Below are positions 4,466-40,492 of a stretch of 64,000 bases of DNA, piece by piece; the stretch's first letter is position 1, and each line of letters opens with the position of its first letter. The stretch comes from Octopus vulgaris (taxonomy: Eukaryota), in NCBI GenBank assembly GCA_951406725.2, contig OX597828.1:56916001-56980000 (forward strand). Direction: 5' to 3'. The notes below the pieces were generated by a model. That model did no database searches. It saw only the letters and a program-made list of their open reading frames with translations, and had not been told where the DNA came from. Position numbers and translations under genes: made by a program.

Positions 4466-5614
4466 CTAAAAACTCGACACAGCAAAAAATATATAAAATA
4501 CTAAAAGGAATATAACAATTGTTGACAAAAATATTTTGTCTAGCTTCTGATAGTTTATAAAATGTCTTTGAGAAATATTTACATCTCTTACTTCAATATT
4601 CTGTTCATCTGAGGTTTCTATGACACCAACCTTATTTCTGGATCCTTTGGATTCTCGTGTAATTTCTGGAGTTAAATTGATGTCTGCTCCAGTCTGTTGG
4701 GCATAAAGTTTACACACAAATACCGCCTCGATAGAGGAACATCCACTGACAAATGTCAGAATCAAAAGATATATCAGATATAAAGAGGGATCCTGTGAAT
4801 TATTGCCCAATATTTTTTCAGTTTCAGAAAGGAAAACGATGTTTGTAAGAAAAATAGTTATTGCAGCACAAACTTTCTCTCCAGATGCAGCTGGCAATAA
4901 ATGAACGGAAAGGATCAATAATGTTAACATTATTGGGGGTATAATTTTTGTTATTGTTGCACTGCTAACCTTTCTCTTGCCGTGAAGTGTAAGACCAACT
5001 GCTATAACATCCTTAGTTTCCTTCTCAGTCTCAGTAAAAGTGAAATCCCATTGATTTGATTTAGCTTTCAATTTTATATCAAAATCAAAATCCTCTATAA
5101 TTACGTCCATAAATATCTGATGGTCAAGGCAAACAGATACATCACATTCGTGCACATCAAAAGGATAATATTTAACGTTAATCCTGCAGTATATTTTAAA
5201 TATTTTGTCTATATGTAAGTGAACGAACCCATCTTGTTTGACAGTGACTTCCTTGAACGGATCGAAACTGAAATCACCTGATACGGTATTACATATTTGA
5301 ATATTGGGATACCAAATTTCAGATAAGTAAGCCTCTCTATGTATTTGTGTAAATATTGAATCATTCCACTTCAGATTATTATCCTGCCATTTTATGCCGA
5401 GATTCAGATGACTTACGAGAATACCTTGCTTCATGTCTAATTCCAGAATATTCTTTATGACAAGTGTCACATATAGGCCTAATTCGGTTTCATTCGCAGC
5501 AACAGGTGTCATTTTTTTATCATAGCCTTTGTTATATTCACCTTCCATGTAATAATAATCTTCTGTAGAAGCGCTTCCAATTGATATAACAATTAAGGCA
5601 ACTATCAATTTCAT
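4466..5614 (-). CDS. Cephalopod chemotactile receptor-like Cys-loop ligand-gated ion channel subunit (atypical nAChR-like), paralog 1, 382 aa, intron-free CDS
   Basis: Uninterrupted ORF. Likely start is the ATG at 5614 (MKLIVALIVISIGSAS signal peptide), not the TTG at 5674. Contains WYPNIQICN, Cys-loop C-x13-C (CRINVKYYPFDVHEC), M1 IIPP, SGEK before M2, four hydrophobic TM segments; no vicinal Cys in loop C. Confidence 0.93.
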   Translation of the reverse strand: MKLIVALIVISIGSASTEDYYYMEGEYNKGYDKKMTPVAANETELGLYVTLVIKNILELDMKQGILVSHLNLGIKWQDNNLKWNDSIFTQIHREAYLSEIWYPNIQICNTVSGDFSFDPFKEVTVKQDGFVHLHIDKIFKIYCRINVKYYPFDVHECDVSVCLDHQIFMDVIIEDFDFDIKLKAKSNQWDFTFTETEKETKDVIAVGLTLHGKRKVSSATITKIIPPIMLTLLILSVHLLPAASGEKVCAAITIFLTNIVFLSETEKILGNNSQDPSLYLIYLLILTFVSGCSSIEAVFVCKLYAQQTGADINLTPEITRESKGSRNKVGVIETSDEQNIEVRDVNISQRHFINYQKLDKIFLSTIVIFLLVFYIFFAVSSF

Positions 5615-6260
5615 GATGAATAATTGAATGGAAATATTCCGCTTTATTCCTCCCTTGGATGTTAAACGTCTCAATGTCTCAAAGTACGTATATTATGCAC
5701 TTCTGAATATTTCCTTAATATATTTGGAAGCACAGGATTTTTTAACAGGTGCTGTTAAATAAAAGTATTGTCAAACAGATTGTTTATGGGATATATAAGC
5801 GTTGTATATAATTTCTCTAGAAATTTATAAAATAAGTTTAAATTAGCTTGCCTTTCCTCTGACGGTCTATGTTTATGAAATGGAAACAGAAGGTGGTTTA
5901 TATATTTCAGCATGCCAGATCGGTGTAGCAGTATAGATTATATTCAAATGTCTGAAGCAATGTTGATGATTTCCGGGCGTGCCTAGCAGTGTTGTATTTT
6001 AGTATTAACTTCTGTACTTAAAAGCCTTTAAATAAAGTATACTATTTCTTTTTAGTCTGCCCCTCTCTACCTACCTTTCTCTTTATTCCTCTCTATCTAT
6101 CTTTCTTCCTCTATTCCTCTCTGCCTCTCTTAGTCTGTGTCTCTCTTTCTCTCTCACTGTCTCTCTCTGTCTCTCTCTCTCTCTCACTCTCTCTTTCCCT
6201 CTCTTTGTCGAATAAATCTTTTATCCTTTTCTTATATATAATATGTCATTTGAGACAGTT

Positions 6261-6309
6261 AAGTGTTAGTTTTCCCAAAAGGTTAAACATGATCGGACAC
6301 GCCGAAATT
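6261..6309 (-). promoter_or_regulatory. Conserved upstream motif of the CR unit (paralog 1)
   Basis: aagtgttagttttcccaaaaggttaaacatgatcggacacgccgaaatt; 43/49 identical to 28631-28679. Confidence 0.55.
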
Positions 6310-6588
6310 ATCTAGTATTGTTTGGTTAAACACAAAAACAATAATTAAACTTGTTGCTAACCACTGGCTGTTAATCAATTCATATTGAACGGTAGTTAGT
6401 TGTGAGCACGAGTCTTTATTTAAGATCTTAACTTTCACTTTTTTACTCGCTCACACTGCTGATTAAAAATTTCGCCTATTGTACTATTATAATGCTCAAC
6501 GTTTCACCTTCAGTATCAAAGTGACTGATACGTTGGGTGCATTCGATAAACAATATATATGTATGTATATATATATATATATATATAT

Positions 6589-6916
6589 TGATACGAGCAG
6601 GTCAGCTGGGAAGCAACTGCCTTGACCTACTTTGCTTGAGGTGGAGACTGGAAGTCTACAATGTAAAGTTAATGTCCTTTGTTCTGTCGATTCACGAAAG
6701 AGTGATGGCTTTTCGAAAGACCCCTGTCCTTTTGCCGGTCAGGGAAGGGTCAAGGAAACTACCCTATCAAAAAGGAGGAGGTGTGAGCCTGTAAGTTCAG
6801 TTCGGCCGGAGAAATTGAGGTGGTAACAAGGCAGATGCGATTACGAAGGAAGCGGTCAGTTGAGAAAGACAGACACACAATCATGAGAGATGACAGGCGA
6901 GATAGTGACAGTGACA
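6589..6916. mobile_element. Truncated LTR-like fragment related to the 53351-54459 solo LTR
   Basis: Shares ttgacctactttgcttg.ggtgga...aagtcta.aatg.aaagtta and aagagtgatggctttt with ~53380-53465. Confidence 0.55.
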
Positions 6917-9326
6917 TTCTTTGTTTTAATACTTGAAGATAACCATGGGTAGAACATTCATCTGCAGGGGGGAGCCACTCTGTAGTTTCTATTTCATTAG
7001 TTATATAGAATTAAATGTATATTTTCGAGCAATGCTATAACATGATAATACGATAACACACCATAAGTTTAGTCATAGCCTTTCCTGTTCTATAATATTG
7101 ATGTGCAGATACGTGTAGTACTGCATACCTAACTTTAGGATCCTGGCGTGCCCTCTAATGTTTTGTAGAGTTGTTGTTCTTTTTCTATTGCTCTCAATGA
7201 AATTTTAGCATACGGATTTGATTAATGGAAAAGCATTCAAGCAGTATCGTATGAGTGTATTATAAATGCGTTATATACCTACAGTTATATCCACAACTAC
7301 ATATGAACCTCTTCCCACTTCAGTAGCTTTCGAGTGTAATTTCGGTAGGAAACTCTGTGGCTGATAGTGCGGCTTCAGTTTATGACATTTACGTTGAATA
7401 TGATTCCGTTTCAAGCAGTTTCTAAATGATGAAGCAGATCTGTGTGAATCAAGTTATTCAATTAATGTAACATGCAAAAGCTATATTGCAGAAAAATTTT
7501 GTATACATCTGCGCTATAATATGCATATGTCTGTCGAATCGACTTGATTTAAAAGGAAGTATAAAATGGAATCGTTAGCGAAATATAGTAAAATACAGTG
7601 TTTATCGTTGAAATTACACCAGCTTAAATTATTGTTACATGCAACAATTTGTATGCATTTCGAAACAGAAGAAAGCACTGGAAGGCTTAATCTTTTGTAA
7701 GCTTCCAGGTACAATGCAGTGCAGACAACCAGAAAGGAAATGCATAGAGCTCGTCCTAGAATTAGTGGGTGATATTTTGAATGACTACTTATTGTAATTC
7801 TGCAGTAAATTCTTTGAAAATAATACTAAGTTATCAGGTGATGCTGACTGGTTTTAAATCTAGATAGGCCATATGCATTCTAAGACGGCTGATATTGAGA
7901 ATTGAAAATAAATGGATACAGAAAGCTGAATTTCACATATTATGAACTCCTCCTTTTTCTTTTCAGAAAGAGTTCGATGTATTGATGAAGAGTTCAACAG
8001 CATTGAAAGCTGTAGTTGGGAAGATATTAGCTGATATGATGGATTGCATACCATCTAAATATTGGAAAAGTTTGATCGGTATGTTAAGTATTAGCGCCGG
8101 CTATCAAAATGCTGACATTATGGCCGCTCTCCTCAGACATAACAGAATATGCTTCAACACACGAACTCACATAAAGAGTCTTGCAAACCAAATCGAAAAA
8201 TAAATATACGTCAAATTTAGCACAAAAAATTTACGTCAAATTTAGCCCAAATTTGAACTGTTGAAAAAAGTAAAAACAAGTAGTAAAAAAAATCAAACAA
8301 CGATGGTGATAATGAAAAAATATCATCTGTTGAAATATGTGATATATAAAAAGAAAAAAAATCTTTCTATATCTTAATATACAAATGTAAGAATTCTCTC
8401 TTTTGTTTTTATATATACAATTATACATCTTAAACTTCTAACAATGTATGTATATGTTTATACATTCTTATGTTCATGTAGATGTATGTATATGTGCAGA
8501 CACATTTGTATGTTTATATGCATGTTGGTATATGTGATCGTATATATGTATGTATGCATGTATGTGTATTTGCATGCATGTACTTGTGGGTATATATGTG
8601 GGTGTATATGTGTATGTGCATGTATGTATATATGTGTGTGTATATGTGTATATATATGTGTATATGTATGTGTGTGTATGTATATATATAGATATGTATT
8701 TATGTATGTATATCTATATCAAACATTGAATGCTAAAACCCACAGAGAGTGCCAAGATAAAAGTGGACACAAAAGTTTCTTTATTTTTATATTTTAGATT
8801 TTCTTTTATTTTTTCCCTTCCTTTCTTTCTTATATTCAGGGACATACAGTGCATGTATGTTTGAATGTTTATGAAAACAAGCACACATACAATAAGTTCC
8901 TCCATATATAAATATATATATATATAAATATATATATATATAGATATATAGATATATAGATATATAAATGTGCGTGTGTGTATTTGTATGTAAGGGTATA
9001 TGTGTGTGTGTGTACATAGCAACACTCCTACCATTGAAAAACAAACCCTCTTTTTCCTTCTCTCTTTCCATTTCTTACAAAGGTCATCTCAAAAGTACAA
9101 AAGGACACAAAAGGAAAGAAACGAAAAAGAGAAAAAAATGTTTTTAAAAACGCACCCTTATTCTCTTTCATTCAGGTTCTCCATCCCTCTATTTCCCTAT
9201 CGCTCCCCCTCTCTCTGTCTCTTTCACCTTCGCTCTCCCTATATTTCTCATTATATACACACACACTCTCTCTCTCTCTCCCCACTTCATTCACCCATAA
9301 TATAAACACAGGCATATATATATATG

Positions 9327-10518: not shown

Positions 10519-11856
10519 GGGGAGAAAGAGAACGGGTGTGAAATAAAGAGTGTGAGGAAAAATAAAATAATAGTCCTATAAAATTTAAAAGTTTATTTTT
10601 TTAAATCGAAAACCGTCAGCTAAATTGTGAGTAGCAGATGGCAATGTCCTAAAAACTACCACCCTCAGCTTACAGAACGGCCTCAAGTCGGCTTCGGAAT
10701 TTCGCAGACAGTGCGACAGGTATCCTTCTCAAATACGCCCTACACATTATAATGCGTGTGATACAATCGGGGAAATAGGATGTCCAGAAATTTAGGCCGG
10801 TGAAGTAGTAGAGATTCCCGGACACATGATTTTTTCTGGAGGTCTATTAAAGAGCCGAATCCTCGTGTCACACATATGGGCTTTCAATAGCCACCATCTC
10901 ACCAGTAACAGTTTTGCTATAGACATCAGCAGCTTCATGTAGCCGTCGACTGAAAGCACACACAAAGGCGATCAAAATTTGCGAAACTTAATTTTCATGA
11001 TGACTAAGTCACGTCTTATAAACTTTGAATTGGTCACGAAGCATTGAGCAGCGGACATAATGTCAGCATTTTGATAGCCGGCGCTAATACTTAACATACC
11101 GTTCAAACTTTTCCAATATTTAAATGTTATGAATTCCATCATATCTGCTAATATCTTCTAATATCTTTCTATGCTGTTGAACTCTTCATCAATACATCTA
11201 ACTCTTTCTGAAAAGAGAAAGGAGGGGGTTATAACATGTGAAATGTAGCCCAAACACACTTTACGTTTCTATTTATTTTCAATTCTTACATCAGCCGACT
11301 TAGAATGCATATGGCCCATTTTGATTTAAAACCAATGAGCATCACCTGCTGACTTATTTTCAAAGACTTTACTGCAGAATTACAATAAGTAATCAGTTAA
11401 AATATCACCCACTAATTCTAGGACGAGTTCTATGCATTTCCTTTCTGGTTGTCTGCACTACAGTTACCTGGAAGCCTACATAAGAATAAGCCTTCTAGTG
11501 TTTCTGTTTCGAAATGCATCAAAATTGTTATATGTAACAATAATTAAACCTGGTGTAATTTCAATGATACACACTTTATTTTACTATTTTCGCTAACGAT
11601 TCCATTTTATTCTTCCTTTTAAACCAAGGCGCTTCAAAAGACATATGCAAATTATAGCATAGATGTATACAAATTTTTATATAAATTTTAATTTATATAA
11701 ATTATTTTATGTATTGACTTAAGTCTTTCTTTGTTTGATTTACATAATAGTGGTTTTGTCTCTAATATAATATAATATAATATTTTACTATAAAATTGGA
11801 TTCAATCCTAAATCTGATTTTTCCCTGTAAATTTGGATTTATTCCCTAATATTTAT

Positions 11857-15889: not shown

Positions 15890-17345
15890 GGCGAGGTTCT
15901 AATTATCAATATTCCACCATTGGCTGCATATCGTCCAACTCCCCCTCAACTCCCACTGGATCAATATCCCATCCAAATATTTTATTTAACCTGTTATACC
16001 TCTCTTTATCTATTGCATTCACATTTTCCGAGGAAATATCCGTAGGCAAGTAAACCCTTATTACGGATTTAAACTTCGGTATGTTTTTTTTTATATTCCC
16101 CTTCTCTTGCGCATCTTCAGCTTCCATGTTTGTTTGATTTTTTTTCTTTGCTCCACTCTTGGCGCCTTCCCTCGGTATTTATCCTCCTCCATATTAGTTA
16201 TAGTCACTGCTTCACTTTTGTGCTGTTGTCTCCTTACACCATCCAAATCTTCCTCCTCCGCTAGTGTAGCTAATACACTTGCTACTGCCACCTCTTTCAC
16301 AAGCCCCTCGTAAAGCTCCTTCTCCAACTGTTTTACAACCCCCTTCTCCACCTCCTTATCTCCTTTTTTTTCTTTTTCTGCCTCTGCGGCGGAGAGTTTA
16401 CTCTTTCTTTTCTTTTTCGTATTTTAACCACTATGAACGCTTCCTTTCTTATTACCGTCATTTCAAACCATCTTGTACCGCTTCGTCCACCTCTTGCTCT
16501 TCAGACTATTCCATCTGTTGTTCTTCCTCTCTGTCTGTGCATATCGTCTTAATGTGTCGGCCTTTTTCCCCACATTGATAACATATACGAGGCCTGCCCT
16601 CCACTACTATTCTCAGCCTCACATCCTCTGTTAAATCTATTTCCTCCAGAATTTCGTTAATATCTTTCAAAATCGCTTGTATGGCCATCTCTATGCTATA
16701 ACCCCACCAATATAACCATATGGTTCTCGTCACTTTCAGTATTTTCGCGTCATCCTCCATGTTGAATATTATCACTGCTACCACCCATGTTTCATTTATA
16801 TCCGGGGGTTCTTTTCCTACTCTCACCCTGGCCAAACGCTTGCCACAGTACGATGGCAAAAGTACCCATTCATCCGTCTTTTTGGCTACAGGGGATTACT
16901 GTATCGCTTCGTCTTCAGTCGCGAATCGCACATCGCACATCCACTATGCTATACGTTCTTCCTCTCGTGATGTATGTCGTGACCTTTTTAATTTCTTTCA
17001 AGCATTCTTTAACAACTTCGATATTTTCGATTTCGCTTTCCTATCTTCCCCTCACGAAGGTTCTACCTTCCCCTCACGAATCTGTAAAGCATCAGAATCC
17101 ACTCCAATGCCTGTTTCTGCCGCATAACTGTGGCTGGTACGTGTTCCATAACTCTCATAAATGGGAAGGAAACAATCACAGTTTAAAAATTTCGTATGCA
17201 AAGAACAGCAACAGTAATTTCAACAATTCAACAAATAGGTTCACCATTACGGGATACCTTCATCAGACAATTAACAATGCTACTCACGTCTAACAGGAAT
17301 CAAAAATGATTGAACAGAATAGAAAAAAAAACAGCGGCGAGTACT
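15890..17345 (-). mobile_element. Non-LTR retrotransposon (L1/Tx1-like) 5'UTR plus decayed ORF1, copy A
   Basis: Frameshifted ORF1 with zinc knuckle LRIVVEGRPRICYQCGEKGRHIKTIC; homologous along its length to copy B; no ORF2 seen. Confidence 0.7.
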
Positions 17346-18958
17346 AATTCTTTTATTAAGTACTTAGGCTCTTACGCAGGGGGGACAGCACAAGGGCAGT
17401 CAGAACACCAAAGTGGGGACAAAAGCATACAACGAATGAATAATGAGAAAAATGTTATATAAAAATGAAATGTCTGCCTGAGCAACACTATCATGCAGTA
17501 CAATTTGATTGTTTTTATGCACAGTTTATAATATTTTCTTTTTTTCCTTTGTCTTTGTTTCTATTATCATGGTTTTACTTGTTTTAATGTCTCCTAAATT
17601 GTTCCAGCTCTCTCTATTCAGCCACTGGTCACAGTTCGTGAAACTCCACCGCAACTCCCGGCGAATGAATCTCCCCTCTACACATTTCCTTTAACCTGTT
17701 ACATCTATCTTTATCAATTAAGATGGCCTTCACACTTTCCGGGTAAATATCATTAGACAACTTAAACTTTATAAAAGACTTGAACTGCTTTATCTTTCTT
17801 TCCCTTGCTGTGTCCTTAGTGTATATAACGAAATTCCAGCTGTGCATTTTCGCCTTTCGCACTTGTTTTCCTTTTCTCTGCCCCTCTCTTGACACCTTCC
17901 CTCTGTCCTTATCCTCCTCCATTTTGGTTATCATTGCTGTTTCTCTTTCATGCTGTTATCTTCTATACCGCCTAAAACTTCTTCTTTCTCCCCAGTTATA
18001 GCTATTCCCCTTCGTACTGTCTCCTGCTCCTCAGACTGTTTCATCTGCTTCTTCCCCCCTCTCTCTGGGGGCTACCCGCCTTCATATGACTATTTTCTCC
18101 ACACAGGCAGCACATGGGAGGTCCACCCTCCACCACCACTCTCAGCCTCACATCCTCGGGCAAAACCACCTCTCCGCAATCCTGTCCAGCTAACTTAAAC
18201 CTGCCTGCACGGCAATCTCTATTCCATAACCCCAACAATTCAACTCTCTGGTCCTCGTCACTCTCAGCACTCTTGTATTCTCCCCCATGTTGAACATCAT
18301 CGCTGCCACCAACCATGTTTCATTTATTTCTGGTGGCACCTATCCCACTCCAATCCCAGCAACACGCTTGCCACAGTATGTTGGCAAATGTACTCATTCC
18401 GCCGTTTTTATGGCTTCAGTGGAGAGCGTCATCGTTTTGTTCGTCGCGAATCACACCTCCTCAGCGCTATACTTCCTTCCTTGTGAGATAAAGGTGGTGA
18501 ATCTTTTAATTTCTTTCAAGCACTCCTCAATATCTTCAACGATTGCTATTTCCATTTCCTTGGATGACACCTTCAGTGTATTAATTATAATAGTTCTTTC
18601 TGTCACACCGTTCGTTAGTTCCAATGGTGGCGTCAGTTTCAAAGTATTGCCTTCCTTTTTCAACAAATTTTCACACTCTTTCAGCTTCCTCAGTTCCACC
18701 TTCACCTCACGAACCTCCAAAGCTTCAGAGTCCACTCTGGCCCTTTGCTGGTACTTTTTCCATCTCCCCCATAAATGGAACTAAAACAAACACAATTCAA
18801 CAATATCGTATGCAAACAACAGTAACAGTCATTTCAACAATGAATAATTCTAGGTACAGCCACGAAGGGAGACCTTCAACAAATAATTAACAATGTGACT
18901 CACGTCTAACGGGGATCAAAATGAAGAAACGGAAAAGAAAAGGAGCGGTGACTACTCA
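17346..18958 (-). mobile_element. L1/Tx1-like 5'UTR, decayed ORF1 and 3' tail, copy B (head-to-tail with copy A)
   Basis: LRVVVEGGPPMCCLCGENSHMKAG knuckle; shared 5' block attaacaatg..actcacgtctaac.gg.atcaaaa; A-rich 3' end near 17350 on the minus strand. Confidence 0.7.
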
Positions 18959-19454
18959 TCCAGCATTTCACTCTGTTCTTATTTATCGTAATCGGTCAGT
19001 TCACATTCAGACACGCGGTGTTGTTGAGGAATCTCCCATAGCACTACATATGCATAATCTGAACAATACCATTGTTTACGTGATTCCCGATGGTTTAAAC
19101 TTAAATATATGCAGAATAAATATACAGTATTTATAATATAGTATAATTTGTATAATTTCAAGTAAACTTAGGTGAGAAAACAAACTCAACTATAACCACT
19201 GTCGTGCAAATTGCCAACAATGATGAATATTGGAGACACTACATACACATCATTGTTCAGGTCGTCATTTTTGGCTTAATGAAAAATAAATCATATGATT
19301 TATTTAATTAAAAATGTCCTCAAACGATAGATTAATAAATTTAAAATATGTAATTAATTGTATACAAATTTGTTCAATGACGTCAAGTGCTTCTTTTCTT
19401 TATTGGTAAATTGTCCATCTCAAATTTAAAAGAAACATATACACACACAAAATA

Positions 19455-19690: not shown

Positions 19691-20971
19691 ACATACAGAT
19701 ACGCTATGTTCCTATGCATCAAAGTACCTTCGCCCAAGGTTCATGGAAATTACACTGATGTTGGACACACCCTACACAATGCTCGTATAGCAATCAGACA
19801 ACAGTAAGAATTGTAATATACTAGAAGAGCTTAAATAAACTGACGAATGTGTTGTTCTTTTCTGAAAGCAAATCAGGTTTGGTGCGATGGGAAGTATCTG
19901 AACATTTCAAAATTCATTATATAATAGAGTTGAAATCGTTAAGGGGATTTCGTTATCATGCTACAATATCCACATTTTGTGCACCAAAACGTGCAATATT
20001 TTATGTGTACCCGAATGAAGAAATCGTAAATGCGATAAGATGATATATTGCTGAGTTGGAAAACCTTATTCGATTAGCCGTCCATCATCGAAAATGTGAA
20101 TTCCTTTTTCTGCGAGAATGTACTTCATTTTGTGTTGTTTTACTATTTGAAGACATCTGTTTGCGAAAGATCGAAAGCTATAGGATAGTCATTATGTGGA
20201 TTCTATTTGATTAGCTTTAGAGAATTAAAAATAGGGATAAAATAAATGTTATGATATACTATAACTACACTATAGGTGCAAGTGTAGATATGTGCAATAA
20301 TGCGGGTTTCTGTGTACGCATCTATGGTAACTCCTAACATTCCAACAACAGGATCAATACGATAAAAACAAGATTTAAAGATAGATACTCTTAAGATAGA
20401 ATCATTGAAACCTTAAAGATGGCGCTCGACCAGACTTGCAGTCAAATGAGTGAAACCACAAAGAATAAAAAATAGAAAATCAACATTAATAGCATTACTA
20501 TGAAAGCTACTTTTTATTAATACATAGGTTATTTTACAAGAAGCTTCAGCTGTTATGGAAGTGCATATCATTGAATTAAATTCAAAATTATAAAAGAAGT
20601 ACAATCAGTTTGGTGTGTGTTAAATAATTCTTAAAGGCAACGATTTGGTGATCTGACCGATCAACAGAATATGTTTTCTTTTTCTTTCATATATATTGAA
20701 AATTACTCGGAAGATTGTTTCTAAGTGTTATAGGTATTAAGGAACATAACAGCTTTTGCTCTCACCGTGCGATATGCTATAAACATAGGTAATAATACTG
20801 TGAAGAATTTTCCAGTTGTGATTCATTCCTGAAAGTGGAAAGAAGTTGAAAAACGCGTAAAAAGTTAATACAAAATAAACCTAAAGTTCTTGTGACACAG
20901 TGTATATGAAAATTCATATTATTTTCAATTATAAATAGTTGTTCTAAATGTTGGCACAAGGACAGCAAATT

Positions 20972-21146
20972 TAGTCGATTATATCAACCCCAGCTGATAC
21001 ATATTTTATCAGTATTTTGCATTACAGCATTTTACTAAAAATGATGTAATGCAAAGTCCACACCGGCAGGATTTCGAACATAAAAAGGGATTAAACACCA
21101 CTAAGCACTTTACCCGGCATGCTAACGATTCTGCCACCAACCGCCA
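20972..21146 (-). mobile_element. SINE, same family (decayed)
   Basis: Minus-strand ggcagaatcgttagcatgccggg head. Confidence 0.6.
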
Positions 21147-21649
21147 TCAATTATAAATTATTAATCATTTTATAACTGCCGCGTAAATAATGGCATTCTT
21201 AGTTCTTCTTACTCTGTGCATGAATATATACGTTATCATAAGAACATTTGGAAATGTCACTTATCAAATTACAAGGAGCATATGTGTCCACCTTGCCTGG
21301 GAGCTAGCGTAATAGAACGGGCGTATTCTATATTACAGCTACTGATATGCGATTCCATGTAAAATTAGGCACATGAAAGAGTATAAAGCATAAGAAGGAA
21401 CAGTGAAAAGCGAGTAGAGAAGTGGAATTCAAGGAAAGTTTTCAGAAGAGGTAAATGACAGAACCGATAGAAACGTTATTCAGAATAAAGAGGACAAATT
21501 GAATTATAATAAAACACATAGACAAATTGAGAAGTTTTGTCAGCACATAAATTTGAAACAACACACTAAAACAGTAGATAGACTTACTAAAACATTAGAT
21601 ATATGCGTGGTCACATGTTTAAAACACATTCTCATTAAATATCAATTTC

Positions 21650-23275
21650 TTTTAAATTTCAATATTTGCGTGATGCGTGCTGTAGCAAAAATACCGAATG
21701 TATGAAACATATAAGTGTCTCAACGTATTGCAAATTCAAATAAGAAAGAATAAACGAAACGCTGATCAACATGATCGTAGTACATTTTCAGTTCAAATGT
21801 CACCAGCATCAGCTTATTAATTGTCTACTCACACCTTTAAAATATTTCGTAGATAAACGATTGTTTTGGTATTCTTCGGGGTAAAACAGATATTCTTTGT
21901 AAATCAAGAATATGAAATAATGTCTTATGATCTATTTTCTCAACAATTTCAACAAGCAGTAATCGCATATTATGCAGTTTTGTACAAAGTGCATATGAAA
22001 TGCATTTAAACAATTTAAAACACGATGGGCATCACTGATGCCTGGTTTCCAAATATGTAAGATATTGTGCCTTCTCAAAACAAACATATATTCATTAATG
22101 TTGTCGAAATAAGCAAATTCATAACAGCTCAAAGCTTAGAGCTGTGTTCGTTTAATTCGTTGACCTCTAATTCTTTTAAATTCATTCTTTTTACTTCATT
22201 GTTATATTCTCTTTCTTTCTGTTTTATTTTGGTTTTAAGGATATGAACTGCAATTTATTTTAAGTCGTATATAGTTTTAAAATACGACAGATGAGCACTT
22301 TCTGATAATACTATATACAATTCTCATTGAGAAGTACCAAGTAAAACTTAATCTGCAAAGCGTAAGCTTATATATATATATGAATGTTATCGTATATGAT
22401 CAGGAATTTCAAATGTCTGTAGCATTTTAGATGACCTTCGAATCTGTGAGATAATGTGTATGGTCTGCCTGCGTATGTAAAAGGTACGAAATTATTCGTT
22501 CTGAACCTTAATTCCCTTAATTACGTGTTCTTATGTCTCTTCCAGACTGTTGCAAACGTTTCCCCTTTGTTTCCTATGACTCTCCCTTTCTCTCTATGCA
22601 CAAGCCAATACATAATATGTTTGAAGCATAAGCCTTAAATGTTTTGAAGATCGAATATAAATTTAACACTTGCAAACCATGAATAAATCTATATATATAA
22701 AACTGTAGTTGTGTGAGTGTCTGTCCCCTTCGATTTAGATTCCTAACTACTCCCACATTTTGCGGTGCAGTTTAACCAAATTCGGGTATCTTATAGTCGT
22801 GATTCATATCGAGCCCGTCTGAGTATTAGCGTGCGTCTACGATGAGTCTACGATTTTAAAAATAATTTAAGATCATTTTTTATTCCATTTTAATGCATAA
22901 TTTTTCGTGTGTCGATGGCGGCGGAGTTGGCGTCCACGCTCAAACACCTGCACCTGTGTTTGCTTCTCCCCCTTCTTCCCTCCCTCGTGAAGCTGTGGGG
23001 GAGGGAGTGTAAGGAAATCAACGTCGTAAAGCGTTGTCAAGGAGACCAGCGTTCTTTTAGAACAACGACTTCATGGCTTGAAGACACCAAAACAGAAATG
23101 GCTAAGAAAGCCCGAATTGGCATCTATAAGGGAAGTAACTCACTAAAAATGCTTATATAGTTATTTCCCTTACAAACCCGAGCAACGCCGGGCGATACTG
23201 CTAGTACTACATAAAAAACATATATTGTAATTGGTAATTATATTCTTTTCTTATGGACACTCCGACAATTTCCAT
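21650..23275 (-). pseudogene. CDS-less remnant of a fifth CR repeat unit (downstream and upstream flanks fused)
   Basis: 21650-22380 aligns with the downstream flanks of paralogs 2 (~25800-26535) and 3 (~37760-38405). 22380-22687 and 23205-23275 align with the upstream flank of paralog 2 (28180-28683). No coding sequence lies between them. Confidence 0.8.
22688..23204 (+). mobile_element. Non-autonomous Helitron (517 bp)
   Basis: Inserted between A and T; 5' TC, 3' CTAG; subterminal GC hairpin cccgagcaacgccggg (23177-23192); no TSD; interrupts the ghost unit's upstream flank. Confidence 0.85.
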
Positions 23276-23313
23276 TTTCATATATATATACATACATAAA
23301 TACATACATATAC

Positions 23314-23375
<62 letters not shown>

Positions 23376-24179
23376 CAAACGTTAATAATTTTGATATTTG
23401 CTAACAAAATGAACAATTGGTGTTTTCAGTTGTGTATATTTTTGTTTGTTTTGTCTTCTCATGTGCCGTCTGATCAGAAAGGAAGATGTATTTGAGGAGA
23501 TGACACGGATGGAATGGTTAAAACTCGTTATCGACAAATCTGCATGGAACATGCTGCTCATACTGATCTTGAAAAGAGTAGAATTAGGAAACATGCAGCG
23601 ATGCAAATTGGTTTCCTACATGGTCTCACCCACGTGGAGGACCGCTCGTTGGGAAAGCATGTTTCTTGAATATTCCTTTCCCCTTTAGATAGAAAACACC
23701 GAAAAAAATTATATCATGATGAAAATGTCAGAGAATGTTACATACGTGAAAACATTATTCAAACTAAGAAAAATATTAGAATGCATAAAAGGCAGTAAAT
23801 AGAGGCTTAAACAAATCCCGTGTCGTTCAGAAGAAAAAGGAGAAGCAAACACAGATAAGTAAAATACTAAGAAGAAAGAGAAAAGGCTTAATACAACGCC
23901 AAAAGAATCCAGAATACCTTCCAGCAAATGTGGGGAAAGTGCATTTGGACGAAAAATCTGGGAAAAGTACATCAAAGGAAAGTGCATTCTATATATGTTT
24001 TAACTGGAGAATTTTGTATTCAGCCATTCTTTGGAACAATCTCATCCTCTGATCTGTGCATTACTTTCAGGTATACAGTATACATAAGAAGAAATCAAAT
24101 GAACATTCATTTCATTTCTGTCACGAAAAATAATAGCAAAACATGCAGTGACCTGCGAATCGTTTCATTGTAGAGAAGT

Positions 24180-24484
24180 TGTTTGTTCCTTCTCGAGCCA
24201 TGTCTGGCTCATAAGGGCCGGTTTCTAGGTTTCCTTGGCGTATATGTTCCCCACCTGGACGGGACGTCGGTCCGTCGCAGGTGAGCTGCAAGATGCCGGA
24301 GGAAAGAGTGAGAGAGAAAGTTGTGGCGAAAGAGTCAGCAGAAGTTCGTCATTACCTTCTGCCGGAGCCCCGTGGAGCTTAGGTGTTTCGCTCATAAACA
24401 CACACATCACCCGGTCTGAGAGTCGAATACGCGATCCCTCGACCGCGAGTCCGCTGCTCTAACCACTAGGCCATGTGTCTCCTC
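24180..24484 (-). mobile_element. Full-length tRNA-derived SINE (second family) with TSD
   Basis: A-box TGGCCTAGTGG, B-box-like GTATTCGACTC, (AAAC) tail, 8-bp TSD AGAGAAGT at 24172-24179 and 24485-24492. Confidence 0.85.
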
Positions 24485-25313
24485 AGAGAAGTCTACTATA
24501 TGAAATAACTGTTTGGAAATGCAGAGAAAATATTTTCAGAAGACACGAAACCTTTGGAAATCATGAACTAGAGTTGTCTATAATGCACTACATGCATTTT
24601 TATGAGACAATGAGTGTGATTTATGTTATTTTACTGCATGAAATGTGATATTAGGTTGTTAATGTCAACGAAACCTAAAATTGCGTGTGTAACCAATAAA
24701 GGGATTTAATCTAAAATTCACGTCGCAGATGTAGTAAGTGCGACCGATGCGAAATCTAATGATTATAAAGGGAAGCTCCCAAATTCAGTGAAGAGGAGGA
24801 TCGGCGTCCTAAAGGCAACGCAGATAGAGTCGGAAAGCATTTCAGAATGGTCTTATTAAGAAAATTAGAAAACAAATTTAGAACTCAGTGCACACGCGCA
24901 CACAAAAACTTATATCTGGGAAATGTAGTTATCAAAAGCAAAAATCAAGCAACACATGGTAAGTATATTCGATTAATATTTAAGAGAATATAACTCTTTA
25001 AACGTCCTTTCGTGAAAGGAAGAAATTATAGAAGTGAGAATGAGGAAAAGTTTTGAGATGAAATGAAAAACTTGGGCAAGGTTTTTGTGACCCCTGAGAA
25101 TGATCTTCTGTGGATAGAAAATAAAATGGGAGTGGAAGCAGGTACATGTGCTTGCAGGTATTCAAATGTAACCTTCCTTTGGGATAGGCATAATGGGGTG
25201 ACTAATATATGTGTGAGTGTGTGTGTGTGTGTGTGTGCGTGTGTGCGTGTGCGCGCGCGCGTGTGTGTGTGTGTGCGCGTTTGAGAGAGAGAGAGAGAAA
25301 ATTATGTGGGGGA

Positions 25314-25543
25314 CAGGGCGTTCAAAAAGTCTCTCCGCACTGACTATTTCATTGCAAAATAAATATCTATAGGATGGTAAAAGACTGCAAAAGAATATAT
25401 TAGACTTTATACGACTTTAAAAAACATTTTAAGGGGTGTTGAGAATATCGTCCTTCATTTTAAATGCATAAAGTTTAATTTCTCTTTAGATTCCGTGTGA
25501 GCTAGGCTGAGACTTACTGCCGAGAGACTTTTTGAACACCCTG
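25314..25543. mobile_element. Tc1/mariner-type MITE (230 bp)
   Basis: 22-bp TIRs CAGGGCGTTCAAAAAGTCTCTC / GAGAGACTTTTTGAACACCCTG (1 mismatch); TA on the right flank. Confidence 0.85.
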
Positions 25544-26703
25544 TATATGAAAGGGTGTAACACATATAAACGGAGAGCGAAAACAGAACCAGGAATCGGA
25601 TTGTAAGGTAAGTTGTGAGAGCAGGTTGAGGAGAGAGGTGAGAGAAAGATTATAAAAAAATTGGAGGAGAAAATTTAATTAAAGAACACTACAAATATAA
25701 CAATCAACTTTTAATCGTTTGTTAGTACACACTATAATATAAGACTGATAGCTACATGCGCTCACAAACGCAAACATATATATCCAAAACAGATTCTCAT
25801 AACATATCAAAATTTCTGTAAGTACAATATTTTCCGTATATATATAAAAAATATCGAACATACAAAATGTACGAAAACATATTTCAACATGAATAAAGAA
25901 TAATTAAAATGGTGACCAACATGATCATATTACTATTGTAGCTCATATATCACCATCATTAGTATAAAATTAGTCTATCTGGCATTCATAAATCATTTCC
26001 AAGGAATAAGGTAGCATTTATTTTGACATTCCTCTTATTTTACTTTGTAAAGTAAGGTTACATTACGATGCCTTATAATCTATTTTCTCAGCAATTTGAA
26101 TAAATAGTAATCGTATAGTATACGAACAGAACGAAATGATTTCGAATTCCAGTTTAACAGAAAGTGCATATGAAATATTTAAAAAATCACAATAGATAAC
26201 AATGATTTTGTATCTGATTTCTAAACTTGAAAGATATTTAGCTTTTTCATGACAGATATATATGGCTTAATTTTGTCGAAATAAAGAATACTGACCTACT
26301 CTGAGCATAGAATTGTGTTCGTTAAATTAAGTTTACTTATACATTTTAATTGGCTTAATCTGTATTATTTTCGTTTTAAGGATATGAATTTTATTTTTTC
26401 ATTTATTATACGTCGTATATATTTCCAAGATATAATAGATCAGCAATTATCTCTTTTGTCATAATACTGTATGAAATTCGTGTTGGAAAGTGAAAAGAAA
26501 AACGTACTATGGAAAGCGGAATTTTGTACATACATGAGATAGCGTCAATATTTAATGGCACTTATAGACGAAATACGGAATTAAAGCACATACAACTAGG
26601 TCTTTATGGTTTTACATTAGCATAGTTTGAAAAGACCCTGTTTTTGGAACATGAATACTTTTTGTGCGAGATAGTATTTCCAAACATTGCTTCGCAACTG
26701 AAA

Positions 26704-27876
26704 TTATTGTGAACTTTCTTCATCTTTGTCAGTATTAATTGCTGACAAAGCAATTATGATAAAGAAAATGAGAAATATGACAATTATTGACAAAAATATT
26801 TTGTCTAGTTTCTGAGACGTTAGAAAATGTTTTTTATACGCAGTTTTCGCCTTTATCTTCATATTGTGCTCATCTGATATTTCTGAAACGCCAACACTGT
26901 TTCTTGATCTATTTGTTTCTTTTGCAAATTCTGGAGTTGAGTTATTGTTCGATCCAGTCTGGTGGGCATGCACTTTACATATAATTACTGACCCGACAGT
27001 AGAACAACCGCTGACAAATGTCAAAATTAAGAGATATATTAGATATGCAGATGGTTCCTCAGAATTATAACCCAATATTTTTTCAGTTTCAGAAAGAAAA
27101 ACGATGTTTGTAAGAAAAACAGTGATTGCAAGTGAAATTTTCTCTCCAGAGTCAGCCGGTAGCAAATGGACAGAAAAGATCAAAAATGTTAACATAATTG
27201 GGGGTATAATTTTTGTTACTGTTGCACTGTTAAGTCTTCTCTTACCATGAACTTTAAGGCCCACTGCTGTAGTATTCGTCCTTCCGATGTCAATCTCCTC
27301 AAACTTGAAATTCCATTGTTTTAATTTGGATTTGCATTCTATAGTGTACTCAAAACCGTTTATAGTTTCCTCCATATGCATCACATGCGCAAAGCAAACC
27401 AATATATCACATTCGTGCTCATCAAAAGGATATTTCTCAACGTTAATCCTGCAGTAAGATTTGAATATTTCGTTTATATACAAGTGAATGTATCCGGCAG
27501 AATTTATAGTGACTGCCATGGTCGGATCCATACGAAATCTACCCAATACGCTATTACATATTTGAATATTAGGGTACCATATGTTTCCTAATTCAACATT
27601 TATGAGACTTTTCCCGTATGTTGATTCATCCCACTTGAGATTAGTGTCGCGCCATTTTATGCCGAGTATTAAATTACTTGCCAGTACACCTTGCTTGATG
27701 TCTAATTCAATAATGTTCTCTACAGAAAGTGAAACATTTACATGTACTAAGCCATCTTCCTTATTAGCCGGTTTCTTTGTTTTATCGTAATTACTGAATA
27801 TCTCTTTTTCTAAAGGTTTATTTTGTGAAGAAGCACTTGCAAAGGAAATAAATATTAAGTCAATTATCAATTTCAT
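26704..27876 (-). CDS. Chemotactile receptor-like Cys-loop channel subunit, paralog 2, 390 aa from the signal-peptide Met (in-frame upstream ATG at 27975 also possible)
   Basis: MKLIIDLIFISFASAS aligns with the paralog starts; Cys-loop CRINVEKYPFDEHEC; SGEKISLAITVFLTNIVFLSETEK; M1-M4. Confidence 0.93.
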   Translation of the reverse strand: MKLIIDLIFISFASASSQNKPLEKEIFSNYDKTKKPANKEDGLVHVNVSLSVENIIELDIKQGVLASNLILGIKWRDTNLKWDESTYGKSLINVELGNIWYPNIQICNSVLGRFRMDPTMAVTINSAGYIHLYINEIFKSYCRINVEKYPFDEHECDILVCFAHVMHMEETINGFEYTIECKSKLKQWNFKFEEIDIGRTNTTAVGLKVHGKRRLNSATVTKIIPPIMLTFLIFSVHLLPADSGEKISLAITVFLTNIVFLSETEKILGYNSEEPSAYLIYLLILTFVSGCSTVGSVIICKVHAHQTGSNNNSTPEFAKETNRSRNSVGVSEISDEHNMKIKAKTAYKKHFLTSQKLDKIFLSIIVIFLIFFIIIALSAINTDKDEESSQ

Positions 27877-28630
27877 GATGATCAATTTAAAGGCAATATT
27901 GGGTTTTATTATTATTTTTCTCAGTATATTTAAATCTGTGCAAGTATTGCGTATTTCTATATATTTTTTCTGCATGTTTAAAACATATAGGAAATCGTTT
28001 TATGAAAAGTGTCCTAATAATAGAGATGATATAAGTTACGTATATACTGTCAATCTATTTTCTGTTCAAATTAATACACAAACGTCTAAAAAGAGTTCCA
28101 ATTACTTCGCGTTTCATAGGATTGTCTGTGTTTATGTAATGCAAACAAACGAAGATCATATAATTCAGCTTGGCTTATCATGAACGTCATCATATATCAT
28201 CAGGTCTTCAAATGTCTTTACTATTTTGGATCGTTTTTGGATCTATGTATTAGTGAAGATGGTCTGCATATATGTGTAGGTGTGCAGTAGGAAGTAGGAA
28301 ATTATTCGTTCTAACGAATAGAGATTTTTTGGGCCTCATCCCCACTGCTATTCATGTCTTTTACTTTCGTGTCTCTCTCTTCCGTTTTTGACCATGGGCC
28401 ATTATATAATATTTTGAAGCACAGACTTTAAATGATCTGAAGATCGAATATGCATTTAACGCTTGAAAACTACAATTATATGTTGCAAAAGATATTTTCA
28501 CTTAGTTATTGATAATACATCAAAAGAAAATATTTTGTTAGTAATTTAATGTATTATTAAAAATACATTAAATAGATTGATGTAAGTAACTTTATTCTTT
28601 TGTTATACGTAGTGTGTTGTTTCAGGCGTC

Positions 28631-28679
28631 AAGTGTTAGTTTTCCCATAAGGTTAAACGTAAATGGACACTCCGAAATT
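28631..28679 (-). promoter_or_regulatory. Conserved upstream motif of the CR unit (paralog 2)
   Basis: aagtgttagttttcccataaggttaaacgtaaatggacactccgaaatt. Confidence 0.55.
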
Positions 28680-29589
28680 TTCCACTTATAAATATATCTA
28701 TATGGTAACTATTGAATATTATCGAATGGATACTGAACAATAGATGTTTTTAGGAGTGTATAGTTCATATCTTGACTTGTGATTATACGTTCTCTCATAT
28801 CCCACAGCTGTACGGGGAAAAGACATTGATCAAATGGAAAGTTAAAGTATGGTGATCAACAAATCGCCATTGCACTTTCTGCTCATGCCGATAATAAAAC
28901 TGTCTTGATATTTGCTGATATACGATGAGAAGAGAAATTAGAAAGGCAAAAAACGAATGAGTTTTTCTTTTCCTCATTGAAATATTCTCCTCTCTATATA
29001 TTTACCAGACTCTATATATGTATACCACCCATGCTGAGAGTATGTATGCGTTTGAGTCAGAGTGTGTGTATGCGTGTGTGAAAGGAATTTCATTAGCGTC
29101 ACAGGGTAATTAAAAAAGCTATGTATATGATAACTTATTTTAATAAAACACTTTCCAATTAGAAAATATTATTTTTCTTACGTTGACAAACACTTTGATA
29201 CAGACACGCGCGCACACGCAATATTTAAATTGGAAAATTTATTGCTGTTGTTGCTTAAATACCAGCAGTGGATTACATTGAGGAGAAACAAAACTATTAC
29301 TTCCAGTTCATCATTCCATAAAATATGTTTAGTAAAAGAAAAAAAATTGCAAAGCATCAATACAATTCATAATGGCAAAGAAACGATGAATCTACCAGGT
29401 GGTTGTGGGATGTGCTGGAAATAATAGCTAAATCTGCCTTAAATCGCACATCTGATAGTTACCTAAAATTATAAACTTATAAAATTTATCGTGCTGAGGA
29501 CAATGCAAATGACTTCGCCAGTTTTTTTTAAACGGCGATCCTTTTTTGTTTGAAAATAAAGGAACTGGTGATGTGGTCACAGAAATTAT

Positions 29590-30027
29590 CTGACAGTCAT
29601 GGCTCGGTTCTCCTGCTTGTTTGGCATAGTGCAGAGATCTGTTGCTACATGTAAGTTCTTCCAGCAGCCACCCGCTTGACGAAGAGTAGCATTAACTCCT
29701 CCTAGCACTTGATGTAGGCCTTGGTGTGGGGTCTGAGGCCATATGGGAAGATGAATGGAAGCATAACGTCGCCATCGCTAGTGATCACTCCAAACAACAT
29801 GATGTTAATTGGATGTTTGATTTTTATCACACCCGGTACATGTTTTGGGGACATGGCAAGTGAATGGTTGTTTTGTGTGTTCACCATTTGAACCTGGCAA
29901 AATTTGTTCTCGCCTGAGAAAAACTAAAGCATGTTCGTTTGGAGGGGATGCTTGTGTTTGTTCAAAAGATTCCTAGCGCGGTCTTTTCTCTTGTCTTTGA
30001 TGGCTTGGGATGAAAACTGGCCCTTTC
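29590..30027 (-). mobile_element. Tc1/mariner-superfamily (maT/Tc1-like) transposase fragment
   Basis: Translation FFSGE..F..VNTQNN...KHPINIMLFGVITSDGDVMLPFIFP, typical of the DDD/E catalytic region. Confidence 0.7.
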
Positions 30028-35663: not shown

Positions 35664-38595
35664 ATAGTACTCCATTTATTACATATTCATTTTTACAGTC
35701 ATTCCAACAGTTTTAGAGTAATTCCCGCAGTTCATATAAGTGACAATGTAGAGGGTAACCTCATTATTGTTAGTGGTGATACATTCATATTTATAATGCG
35801 ATAGATCGAATTCCCTGATTTATTTTGTAAAGTATAGTAATTATTATGTGTATCAGATGAGAAGTGGTCCTTCAATATCGGTACGGTTGCATATATTATA
35901 CATTTGCGAATCTGTGAAGGATCTAAGCTGATAAAATTGCATCTTCTGCCACAGCTATGAAACGTATCTCAAACTGTTAAATATGTAGTTCGTAGTATAT
36001 TACTTCACATGCGAAAATCAGAAAAAAACATCTTGAAAAATAGCTGTGCTTAGAAAGAATGAAATTTCACTGTTTATTCTCATGTTGAAAGTTATGTATG
36101 CCAACAGGAGCCTCGTTATACAAAGGAAGTTGTTAAAAAGGATATATTTTGGATTCCTAAGCAAGGAAAATAAAACCGCAATATAAATAATAAGCATACA
36201 TTGGTTACGATTACATTTCTGTCATAGTTGCATGTATGTAAGCACAGGAAAATGTTCAAACGATGAAATGATATACACACCACCTCGTAAAATTTCATGA
36301 CAAATGGCTGATGAAGCAATGCTTACTCCTAAAATATCAATGAAATTTTATTCATGCAGAAAAGACTTTCAAAAGTTATTAAGGCAGCAAATAATCCTCA
36401 ATAATCTCAAAGCAAAAGCGATGTAGAAATATACAAACCCATAAATATTATGCATTTCATATAAAATGGAATTTAAAAGTCATTTTTAGAAAATGCAAAG
36501 ATATGTAACTGAATTTTAAAAATGTGTGTACGTGTTCTTTTATTCTTTTACAGTCATGTGATTGCAGCCATCCTGGAGCACACCTTAAACTGTTTTAGCC
36601 GAGGAAATCTAATATTTCTTCTATCGCCTCTTCTGCTGAATCGTTGTTACGAGAACATAAACACATCAGCATCTGTTATCAAGTGAAGACGGGTGGACAA
36701 ATAAAGACACACACACACACACACACACATCAATATGAGACCCCCTGTGTCTCGTTGGAGATTTTCTTTCTCCGTCTTCCCTTCCTTGGACCTTTCATAA
36801 GGAGATGATATGCAGCTAAATCTTTAAGAAGCCGGTGGGAAAAGTGTCCGATATAGTGTAAATAAATACAGTTGTGTCTGCATGGATAAGGGATTTACCG
36901 TACTTTTACTGTCTCTGAACAAGTCTACCCCTAACAAATCTTCAACAATAGAAATGTGTTCAAGCTATGTTCAACTGGTGTGTGTTCCCATTTCAGGAAT
37001 ACAGAATATAATCTACAGAATAATTTCCACGGTTGATAGTGCTGACCTAGTATTAAATTTATTCATATTCAGAGAAGTTGCTTTGTATTGGAAGTGCCTA
37101 TGTATGCAAGCACGGAAATACGCTGGCATGGGTTAGTAGGGTTGTGAGTTATTTGTCAGCGAGTTTGATTCATTTATGTTTCTGTGTCAGCGAAACTTGG
37201 ATATGAGTTAGTGAAACGAGGCGAGTGTGATGTAAAAGGTAAAGGAAGAAAGATTTGGATTGTACGACCAAAATGTAAATGTATGTGGATGTAGTGAGTG
37301 AGACAATATTGTATGGAATCATCCCCATAAAAACTAATCGGAAACAATGAAATAATGGTGTTAGATACGTGGGAGAAAAGATTTTAGAGAAGAATATGGA
37401 AAAGAATAGTTACAGTGCAACAGTGGTACGAAGATAATATTATGAGAGATAATAGAGTCTGTAAAGTGCATAGAGTTGTTTGAACTGAAAACAGTAACAT
37501 GAAAACAGTAGCATGAAAAAGATAATGAAAGAAAAGTTAACAATGCAGCTAATGTAGAGAGAATGGTAGTAATTTAATATACTTATTACAGTAAAATCAA
37601 TTTCAATAAGACATTAATATTACCATTTTTTTAACTTTATGTGAGAAGAAATTCAAAAGCAGCACAATAAATCATGATATACATAAATATACATAAATAA
37701 GTATGCGTATACACATACATATCCATAACTAAAACGGCACCCAATAATACATCAAAATTGTTGCTTTATGTGTGCAATAGCAAAAATATCGAAAGTATAA
37801 ATCGTAGAAAAGGATGCTTCAACGTTTTGCGAAGGACAAGCAATAGAACAAAGTATAATTAAAATGCTGTTAAATATGATCGCATTACTTTCTCAGTTCC
37901 AATACCATGAGTATCATGTTAACATTCATCTATCTGTCTTTCAAAAGAGAATTCCTGTGTAAATTTGCGATTAGAATGTAGTGTCTTAAATTCCATTTTC
38001 TCAGCAATTTCTAAAACTATTAATTGTATAGAATGTACACAAATGGACAGTTCCAAGTACCAGTTTTACACAAAGAACATATGCAATGAATTTAAAGCAC
38101 AATGCATTTCACTATTTATATATCTGCATTTGGAAATATATAATATTTGTGCCTTCACAAAAGAAGCAGGTATTTCTATACGTTCTCGAGAAAAGTAATT
38201 GTGATAAAATCAAATGACAGCGTTGCGTATCTTTAACGTGGTTTCCTTTTTCTTTCTCTTTATATTTTCATTTTCATTCTCTATATTATGATTTCATTCT
38301 ATGCATGGTATATATTTCAAAAGAGTAGTTGAAAGATGATGTGAAAATTATCTTTATAAAACTCATTCGGAAGTTTTACAGAAAGCTCAGTAAACAATGC
38401 GGAGATTGCGTCGTTTTCAGTCATTCAGAGGCGAAATATAGAATTAATGGCATCCGTTGTGGTTTAATATTTGTTGTTTCCTATCATTTCTAAGGTTTCT
38501 AATTTTTGATACTGAAAATATTATTATTTTAGTTACTATTTCAAAGCTTTTCGTACACACTGAAAGTAATGGTAGTTTCATTTTTTTTACTACTA

Positions 38596-40460: not shown

Positions 40461-40492
40461 CCCACATTGTTAAACGTGAACAGGCACGCCGA
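40461..40492 (-). promoter_or_regulatory. Conserved upstream motif, partial (paralog 3)
   Basis: cccacattgttaaacgtgaacaggcacgccga, 24/32 identical to the paralog 2 motif. Confidence 0.45.

What the first reader, a model, noticed from the sequence alone, without database searches (positions are those of the whole stretch)
21650..23275. 'Ghost' fifth receptor unit: both flanks intact, whole CDS missing at a CATGA microhomology
Seen: up to ~22380 the sequence follows paralog 2's downstream flank (gcaaagcgtaagcttatatatatatatga vs ggaaagcggaattttgtacatacatga). It then switches directly to paralog 2's upstream flank (atgaatgttatcgtatatgatcagg..ttcaaatgtct vs atgaacgtcatcatatatcatcagg..ttcaaatgtct). 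In paralog 2 both switch points carry CATGA (26533-26537 and 28179-28183), 1646 bp apart and spanning the CDS; the ghost has TATGA at 22379-22383. No ORF-based annotation would see this. Inference: gene death by microhomology-mediated deletion, a direct record of birth-and-death evolution. A less parsimonious alternative is an empty pre-insertion site for the intronless cassette.
Basis: partly seen in the sequence, partly recalled or inferred. Interest (0 to 1): 0.8.

Follow-up and report, generated by a model that had tools for sequence, protein, structure and literature searches.

The report
Octopus touch-taste receptor copy, coding deleted
In an octopus cluster of four touch-taste-type receptor genes, a fifth copy survives only as its flanking DNA, and a close relative still has about 1.6 kb of extra DNA at that exact spot, so the coding part was likely cut out recently from a copy that was probably already dead: an ordinary gene loss, caught cleanly.

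Summary
Real, and ordinary in kind. Window 21373-22381 and 22380-23574 match the downstream and upstream flanks of receptor gene U2 (E 2e-71, 4e-24) with no coding remnant between them. One short-read contig spans the junction (run X2), so it is not an assembly collapse. A flank tree pairs the ghost with U2 among coding units (99/99). In run X5 (another organism label, 1.5% diverged) a single-copy contig carries 1,586 extra bases at exactly the junction; U2 has 1,644 there. So this is a recent deletion, not an empty insertion site. The flanks are not intact: a 517-bp Helitron-like insert lies upstream, and 58 bp of the best-conserved upstream block is gone. The 5-bp CATGA belongs to the paralog; the relative's contigs show only a 2-bp AT overlap at a (TA)n tract (up to 4 bp not excluded). 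The copy was probably a pseudogene before the deletion: the insert predates it, no intact sister protein turned up, and a truncated, decayed U2-sister fragment (P0024) exists. I could not see the relative's extra bases, so an intact lost receptor is not excluded.

The parts
21373..22381 (-). Ghost unit, downstream (3') flank; homologous to U2 25547-26535 and U3 37493-38300
   Evidence: mostly single-copy depth
22369..22383 (.). Deletion junction: short (TA)n tract; 22380-22381 (AT) is shared by both sides in the relative's contigs; about 1.6 kb with the coding region inferred missing here
   Evidence: table 8 (X2 record 1 spans it; X5 records 10 and 11; X7 record 18)
22380..22687 (-). Ghost unit, proximal upstream (5') flank; homologous to U2 28180-28481
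22688..23204 (+). 517-bp non-autonomous Helitron-like insert: TC start after A, CTAG end before T, short GC-rich stem near the 3' end; genome-wide repeat; its 5' end is also in the relative's contig
   Evidence: sequence; depth 1e5-1e6; the stem is not above shuffles (z -0.97); Helitron end rules recalled
23205..23574 (-). Ghost unit, distal upstream flank, interrupted by a microsatellite (about 23276-23375); lacks 58 bp (U2 28605-28662) of the conserved promoter-like block at 23252/23253
   Evidence: promoter role inferred, no RNA evidence
26704..27876 (-). U2, intact uninterrupted Cys-loop receptor ORF, 390 aa (open back to an upstream ATG at 27975); sister of the ghost
4466..5614 (-). U1, intact paralog, 382 aa
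38596..39741 (-). U3, intact paralog, 381 aa
48996..50147 (-). U4, intact paralog, 383 aa

Best explanation
The stretch is the flanking DNA of a fifth copy in a tandem array of four octopus Cys-loop receptor genes of chemotactile type, joined across a gap where a close relative still has about 1.6 kb, so the coding region was likely removed by one recent deletion from a copy that had probably already decayed. Order of events: (1) tandem duplication made the ghost and U2 (shown by the flank tree; roughly 60 My by a borrowed rate, inferred); (2) the ghost copy took a Helitron-like insert upstream (shown; older than the deletion because the relative's contig has its 5' end), lost 58 bp of its promoter-like block (shown; timing untested) and probably decayed in its reading frame (inferred); (3) in the window's lineage a break at or slippage from the (TA)n tract was likely joined to an AT about 1.6 kb away by end joining on 2-4 shared bases (deletion shown indirectly; repair route inferred). 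Nothing functional is predicted to remain.
For: Flank homology on both sides with no coding remnant. U1, U2 and U3 align continuously across the breakpoints, so the coding region sat in these flanks before the units split. Tree (ghost,U2)|(U3,U1), support 99.1/99, informative sites 41 vs 19 and 20 of 566 gap-free columns. X2 contig spans 20800-22711 with 1 mismatch and no gap. X5 record 11 (1,918 nt, depth 46.2 against 48.3 and 49.1 for its neighbours) joins at 22380 with 1,586 nt before it that do not fit the window; X5 record 10 and X7 record 18 stop 8 and 10 nt past 22381. The same segment is 1,644 bp in U2. Prior decay: insert start shared with X5; 58-bp loss of a block that is 79.6% identical between U1 and U2; no full-length sister of U2 beyond its orthologues among 18, 1 and 1 hits of three searches; P0024, a 200-aa fragment in the U2 clade, changes 5 of 37 otherwise invariant positions, against 0-3 in 17 other family members (p about 0.0006).
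Against: The letters of the 1,586 extra bases were not shown (the loose-end and piece tables were cut), so it is inferred, not seen, that they hold the coding region and that it is broken. P0024 has no locus attached and could come from another octopod or another duplication. An insert in a 5' region need not kill a gene. Whether the relative also lacks the 58-bp block was not visible. X8 had no usable cover at the junction. X7's right-hand contig was not listed. Only 1 of the organism-A runs was laid, and it may be the assembly's own source. Two shared bases are no statistical evidence for a repair route (20% by chance).
Confidence: 0.7

Rival explanations
1. The deletion itself killed a working receptor: the relative still has an intact fifth gene, and the window's lineage lost it within the last few million years.
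For: The relative's extra segment is nearly full size (1,586+ vs 1,644 nt) and its sequence was not seen. The insert lies outside the coding region.
Against: No intact U2-sister protein among the hits. Named O. sinensis proteins for U1-U4 carry consecutive accessions XP_029646605-8 with none left for a fifth gene (a weak hint, and organism B was not identified). The only sister sequence found is truncated and decayed. The upstream block is lost.
Confidence: 0.17
2. The coding region was deleted long ago, and the relative's 1.6 kb is an unrelated later insertion at the same spot.
For: The extra letters were not seen. TA tracts can receive insertions (own knowledge). The relatives also carry other sequence that the window lacks, at 21367.
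Against: The segment is unbranched, at single-copy depth, of the size predicted from U2, and sits at the base predicted beforehand from the paralog alignment.
Confidence: 0.08
3. Empty pre-insertion site: the ghost copies the locus as it was before an intronless receptor cassette was retroposed into it, with CATGA as a target-site duplication.
For: CATGA flanks the U2 segment on both sides. Intronless CRs are attributed to retroposition (PMC11526382 and PMC13174522, passages).
Against: The ghost pairs with U2 among coding units. The left CATGA is absent at the aligned place in U1, U3 and U4. The ghost's own orthologue in X5 is filled.
Confidence: 0.02
4. Assembly collapse, or chance similarity of AT-rich or repeated DNA.
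For: AT-rich sequence; the junction lies in a short TA tract.
Against: z 67 and z 32 against shuffles; single-copy depth; an unbranched short-read contig spans the junction.
Confidence: 0.01

Closest known systems
Cephalopod chemotactile receptors (CRs; octopus CRT1, PDB 9e6b and 8eis; squid CRB1, 8eiz)
   Same: The intact neighbours are uninterrupted, tandem Cys-loop channel ORFs whose best solved relatives are CRT1 (E 7e-48, against 7e-30 for alpha-7 nAChR). They lack vicinal cysteines and have orthologues in O. bimaculoides and O. sinensis.
   Different: The ghost encodes nothing. Ligands and expression of U1-U4 were not tested, and databases name them only 'acetylcholine receptor subunit-like'.
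Birth-and-death evolution of chemoreceptor families (review PMC11526382, passages; molluscan nAChR arrays, PMC6896357, passages)
   Same: Tandem duplication followed by loss of one copy.
   Different: The copy is lost by clean removal of the coding region, leaving a flank-only footprint that protein-based pseudogene searches cannot see. A relative apparently keeps the earlier state.
Deletion by end joining on short microhomology at a (TA)n tract (recalled)
   Same: Clean junction, 2 shared bases, one end in a TA tract.
   Different: Two bases is within chance; the route cannot be told from the sequence.
Non-autonomous Helitron (end rules recalled; Helitrons in O. vulgaris: PMC13282606, passages)
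   Same: TC...CTAG ends, inserted between A and T, very high copy number.
   Different: Not compared with a repeat library; the 3' stem is weak.

Membership tests
Cephalopod chemotactile receptor (neighbours U1-U4) | Cys-loop channel with ligand-binding and transmembrane domains | tested here: met
   PF02931 above cut-off in 4 of 4; PF02932 hit in 4 of 4, above cut-off in 3 of 4
Cephalopod chemotactile receptor (neighbours U1-U4) | Closer to CRT1 than to canonical nAChRs | tested here: met
   U2 only: CRT1 166 bits, alpha-7 107 bits; no tree with reference CRs was built
Cephalopod chemotactile receptor (neighbours U1-U4) | Intronless coding region, tandem array | tested here: met
   4 uninterrupted ORFs on one strand, 10-22 kb apart
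Cephalopod chemotactile receptor (neighbours U1-U4) | Loss of the loop C vicinal cysteines of alpha nAChRs (feature recalled) | tested here: met
   No CC in 4 of 4
Cephalopod chemotactile receptor (neighbours U1-U4) | Sucker expression; gating by hydrophobic compounds, not acetylcholine | not testable with these tools
   No RNA run laid; no assay
Deleted paralog (flank-only footprint) | Both flanks homologous to a coding paralog and joined without coding sequence | tested here: met
Deleted paralog (flank-only footprint) | Nested among coding units | tested here: met
   (4 units; U4 left out because its flanks barely align)
Deleted paralog (flank-only footprint) | Orthologous site filled with the coding region in a relative | tested here: inconclusive
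   Filled with 1,586+ single-copy bases in X5; letters not shown
Microhomology-mediated deletion at CATGA | 5 shared bases at both ends of the parent allele, one copy kept | tested here: not met
   X5 contigs overlap at 22380-81 only, and the right contig does not match 22379; best register against U2 is 1,644, not 1,646; up to 4 bases not excluded because the left contig ends 8 nt later
Empty retroposition site | Basal position, empty in relatives, target-site duplication shared by all filled units | tested here: not met
Helitron (insert) | 5' TC, 3' CTRR, insertion between A and T, high copy | tested here: met
Helitron (insert) | 3' hairpin; match to a named Helitron family | tested here: inconclusive
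   Stem folds but z -0.97; no repeat library available

The most novel reading that the evidence does not exclude
The relative's 1.6 kb is an intact, expressed chemotactile receptor. One deletion then took a working taste-by-touch receptor from this octopus lineage within about 2 million years, giving a PCR-typable presence/absence difference in receptor repertoire between sister species or populations whose sensory effect could be assayed.
Probability: 0.17. Interest if true: 0.58.

Novelty: new member of a known kind. Interest (0 to 1): 0.33.

Why it matters
Counts of octopus chemotactile receptors come from protein searches, which cannot see a unit like this. It shows that the array had at least one more member and that losses can be read from flanks alone. 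A close relative apparently holds the earlier state, so the order of decay and deletion can be settled by looking at one 1.6-kb region. The process itself, duplication followed by loss, is textbook.

Tried and rejected
No whole genome is held for this window, so no genome-wide search for other ghosts was possible. Within the window, blastn with 9 flank tiles showed no second flank-only unit. tblastn for coding remnants in the ghost: none; longest stop-to-stop frame 95 codons. Rfam on 20000-30000: 0 matches. RNA: no holder on record as RNA was listed and none was laid, so transcript ends, any 5' intron and the promoter role are untested; splice-like motifs upstream of the four ATGs were not conserved by eye. 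Run X8 had no usable cover at the junction. Extending the ghost-U2 homology left of 21367 or right of 23575: scores within shuffles. Search with P0024 for similar fragments: only itself, 1 of 111 candidates. Unequal crossing-over between the ghost and U2 was rejected by reasoning: it would leave one hybrid unit with a coding region and remove the spacer, not the coding region alone. Earlier scan notes: none found. The primary CR paper that I tried (PMC7605239) is not held. Four searches listed no paper describing this loss; I saw listings and passages only and no supplements, so a mention in the primary CR papers or their supplements is not excluded.

Full report
Setting. The window holds four uninterrupted minus-strand ORFs of 381-390 aa (U1 4466-5614, U2 26704-27876, U3 38596-39741, U4 48996-50147). 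All 4 hit the Cys-loop ligand-binding and transmembrane families. U2's best solved relatives are octopus CRT1 (E 7e-48), ahead of alpha-7 nAChR (7e-30) and squid CRB1 (3e-28). None has vicinal cysteines. Each has an O. bimaculoides orthologue at 78-84%, and each has an O. sinensis counterpart at 96-99.5% over the first 200 residues. They behave as a tandem array of chemotactile-type receptor genes; expression and ligands were not tested.

Self-blastn matches 21373-22379 to U2's downstream flank 25547-26535 (E 2e-71) and 22380-22688 to its upstream flank 28180-28481 (E 4e-24). Homology resumes after an insert, to 23574. Scores are z 67 and z 32 against 40 dinucleotide shuffles each. tblastn with 4 of 4 intact proteins finds nothing in the ghost. 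I laid 4 of 24 listed runs on 20800-23270. In X2 one 3,841-nt contig covers 20800-22711 with 1 mismatch and no gap, at depth 13.1. The junction therefore exists in short-read data and is no assembly collapse. X2 may be the assembly's own source, so it does not show that the deletion is fixed.

It is a deletion, not an empty site. U1, U2 and U3 align continuously across the positions of the breakpoints, so the coding region sat in these flanks before the units split. On 566 gap-free flank columns the ghost pairs with U2 against U3 and U1 (support 99.1/99; informative sites 41, 19, 20). U4 was left out because its flanks barely align. The direct evidence is run X5, a different organism label that differs from the window at 28 of 1,915 aligned bases. 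Its record 10 follows the window to 22381 and ends 8 nt later. Its record 11 (1,918 nt) joins the window at 22380 and has 1,586 nt before that point which do not fit. Record 11 has 3 mismatches in 332 nt and runs into the insert, so it is the ghost's orthologue, not U2. Its depth (46.2) equals that of its neighbours (48.3, 49.1), so the extra bases are single-copy. U2 has 1,644 bp between the same points. X7's left contig likewise stops 10 nt past 22381; its right contig was not listed. X8 had no usable cover there. The tool cut its tables and did not print the extra letters, so their identity with the coding region is an inference from position, size and copy number.

Timing. With the rate 0.0036 per million years quoted in PMC13282606 (passages), ghost and U2 split about 59 My ago, and the window and X5 about 2 My ago. 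Both figures are rough. The second is close to the 1.22% heterozygosity reported for O. vulgaris (bioRxiv 2023.05.16.540928, passages), so part of it may be allelic. [quoted passage not shown] I did not identify organism B.

The CATGA story does not hold as written. The motif is in U2 at both stated places, but U2 is 0.42 substitutions per site from the ghost. The best-scoring register removes 1,644 bp (score 110), while the best 1,646-bp registers score 103, and a shared 5-mer within 15-nt windows occurs in 16% of random pairs. In the orthologue the two contigs overlap only at 22380-22381 (AT), at the end of a TA tract. The left contig probably ends inside a longer TA tract, so up to 4 shared bases cannot be excluded. 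Two or more shared bases arise in 20% of random breakpoint pairs, four or more in 2.7%. End joining or slippage at the TA tract is the likeliest route (own knowledge); the sequence cannot prove it.

The flanks are not intact. A 517-bp element with TC and CTAG ends sits between A and T at 22688-23204. It reaches depths of 1e5-1e6 with hundreds of differing neighbours, which fits a non-autonomous Helitron (end rules recalled; its 3' stem is not above shuffles). X5 record 11 runs 24 nt into it, so it predates the big deletion. Further upstream the ghost lacks 58 bp (U2 28605-28662; 59 against U1) of the block best conserved between units, 79.6% over 93 nt for U1 and U2. The block holds a TATA-like stretch; its role as promoter is inferred, and whether X5 also lacks it was not visible.

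Was the gene dead first? Three protein searches covered all lengths from 30 to 683 aa: 18 hits of 2,843 candidates, 1 of 319, and 1 of 111. No full-length sister of U2 appeared beyond its orthologues. The named O. sinensis proteins for U1-U4 have consecutive accessions, a weak hint that no fifth protein is annotated there. One fragment did appear: P0024, 200 aa from unnamed assemblies, covering U2 residues 48-247 at 69.5%, inside the U2 clade (100/100) on a long branch. It changes 5 of 37 positions that are invariant in 17 other family members, including prolines next to the Cys loop and in the first transmembrane helix; those 17 show 0-3 each (Poisson p about 0.0006). It looks like a decayed sister of U2 and is a candidate for the ghost's missing coding region, but nothing ties it to this locus. 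Together I put decay before deletion at about 0.7 and loss of a working gene at about 0.17.

What is known. Birth and death of chemoreceptor genes, and intronless tandem CRs and molluscan nAChRs, are described in PMC11526382, PMC13174522 and PMC6896357 (passages). Two CR preprints (10.1101/2025.10.28.685082 and 10.1101/2025.03.03.641191; term searches) have no occurrence of 'pseudogen' or 'vulgaris'. Four library searches listed nothing on this loss, but the one primary CR paper I tried is not held and no supplements were read.

Verdict. A real flank-only footprint of a fifth receptor copy, emptied by a recent deletion of about 1.6 kb. It is a neat, easily tested instance of a known process. 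Interest 0.33; 0.58 if the relative's copy proves intact and expressed.

Noticed in passing
window 21367, 21710 and 21973-21974: X5, X7 and X8 carry sequence that the window lacks: at least 160-180 nt on each side of a contig break at 21367 (not all seen in every run), about 27 nt at 21973-4 (U2 has the matching stretch) and 3 nt at 21710. The window's haplotype seems to have lost DNA several times in this dead unit.
   Followed up: partly
window 15896-18959: Two decayed tandem copies (67-73% alike) of a minus-strand element whose broken frame has a CxxC-type zinc-knuckle-like motif; it looks like a retroelement ORF1/gag remnant (label recalled).
   Followed up: partly
window 6621-6713 and 53380-53463: A 93-nt block, 79.6% alike, lies upstream of both U1 and U4; shared regulatory element or repeat, not told apart.
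   Followed up: no
window 6220-6312, 28591-28682, 40455-40547, 51070-51095: Conserved block upstream of all four intact genes, with a TATA-like stretch and a TYAAGTG motif (NK-2-like, recalled) in U1, U2 and U4; candidate shared promoter of the array.
   Followed up: partly
window 27877-27975: U2's frame is open 33 codons upstream to another ATG (423 aa), but the database protein and the three paralogs start at the position of 27876.
   Followed up: no
window 43359-43856: 165-aa plus-strand ORF that reads like the C-terminal end of a LINE reverse transcriptase (recalled); no Pfam hit.
   Followed up: partly
window 7460-8128 and 11050-11703: Inverted pair of about 670 nt, 84% alike; probably two copies of a transposon.
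   Followed up: no
proteins P0020, P0021, P0022: Further U1-like proteins (85-96% over the first 200 residues) are named from O. vulgaris and O. sinensis, against one hit in O. bimaculoides: recent births next to this loss.
   Followed up: partly
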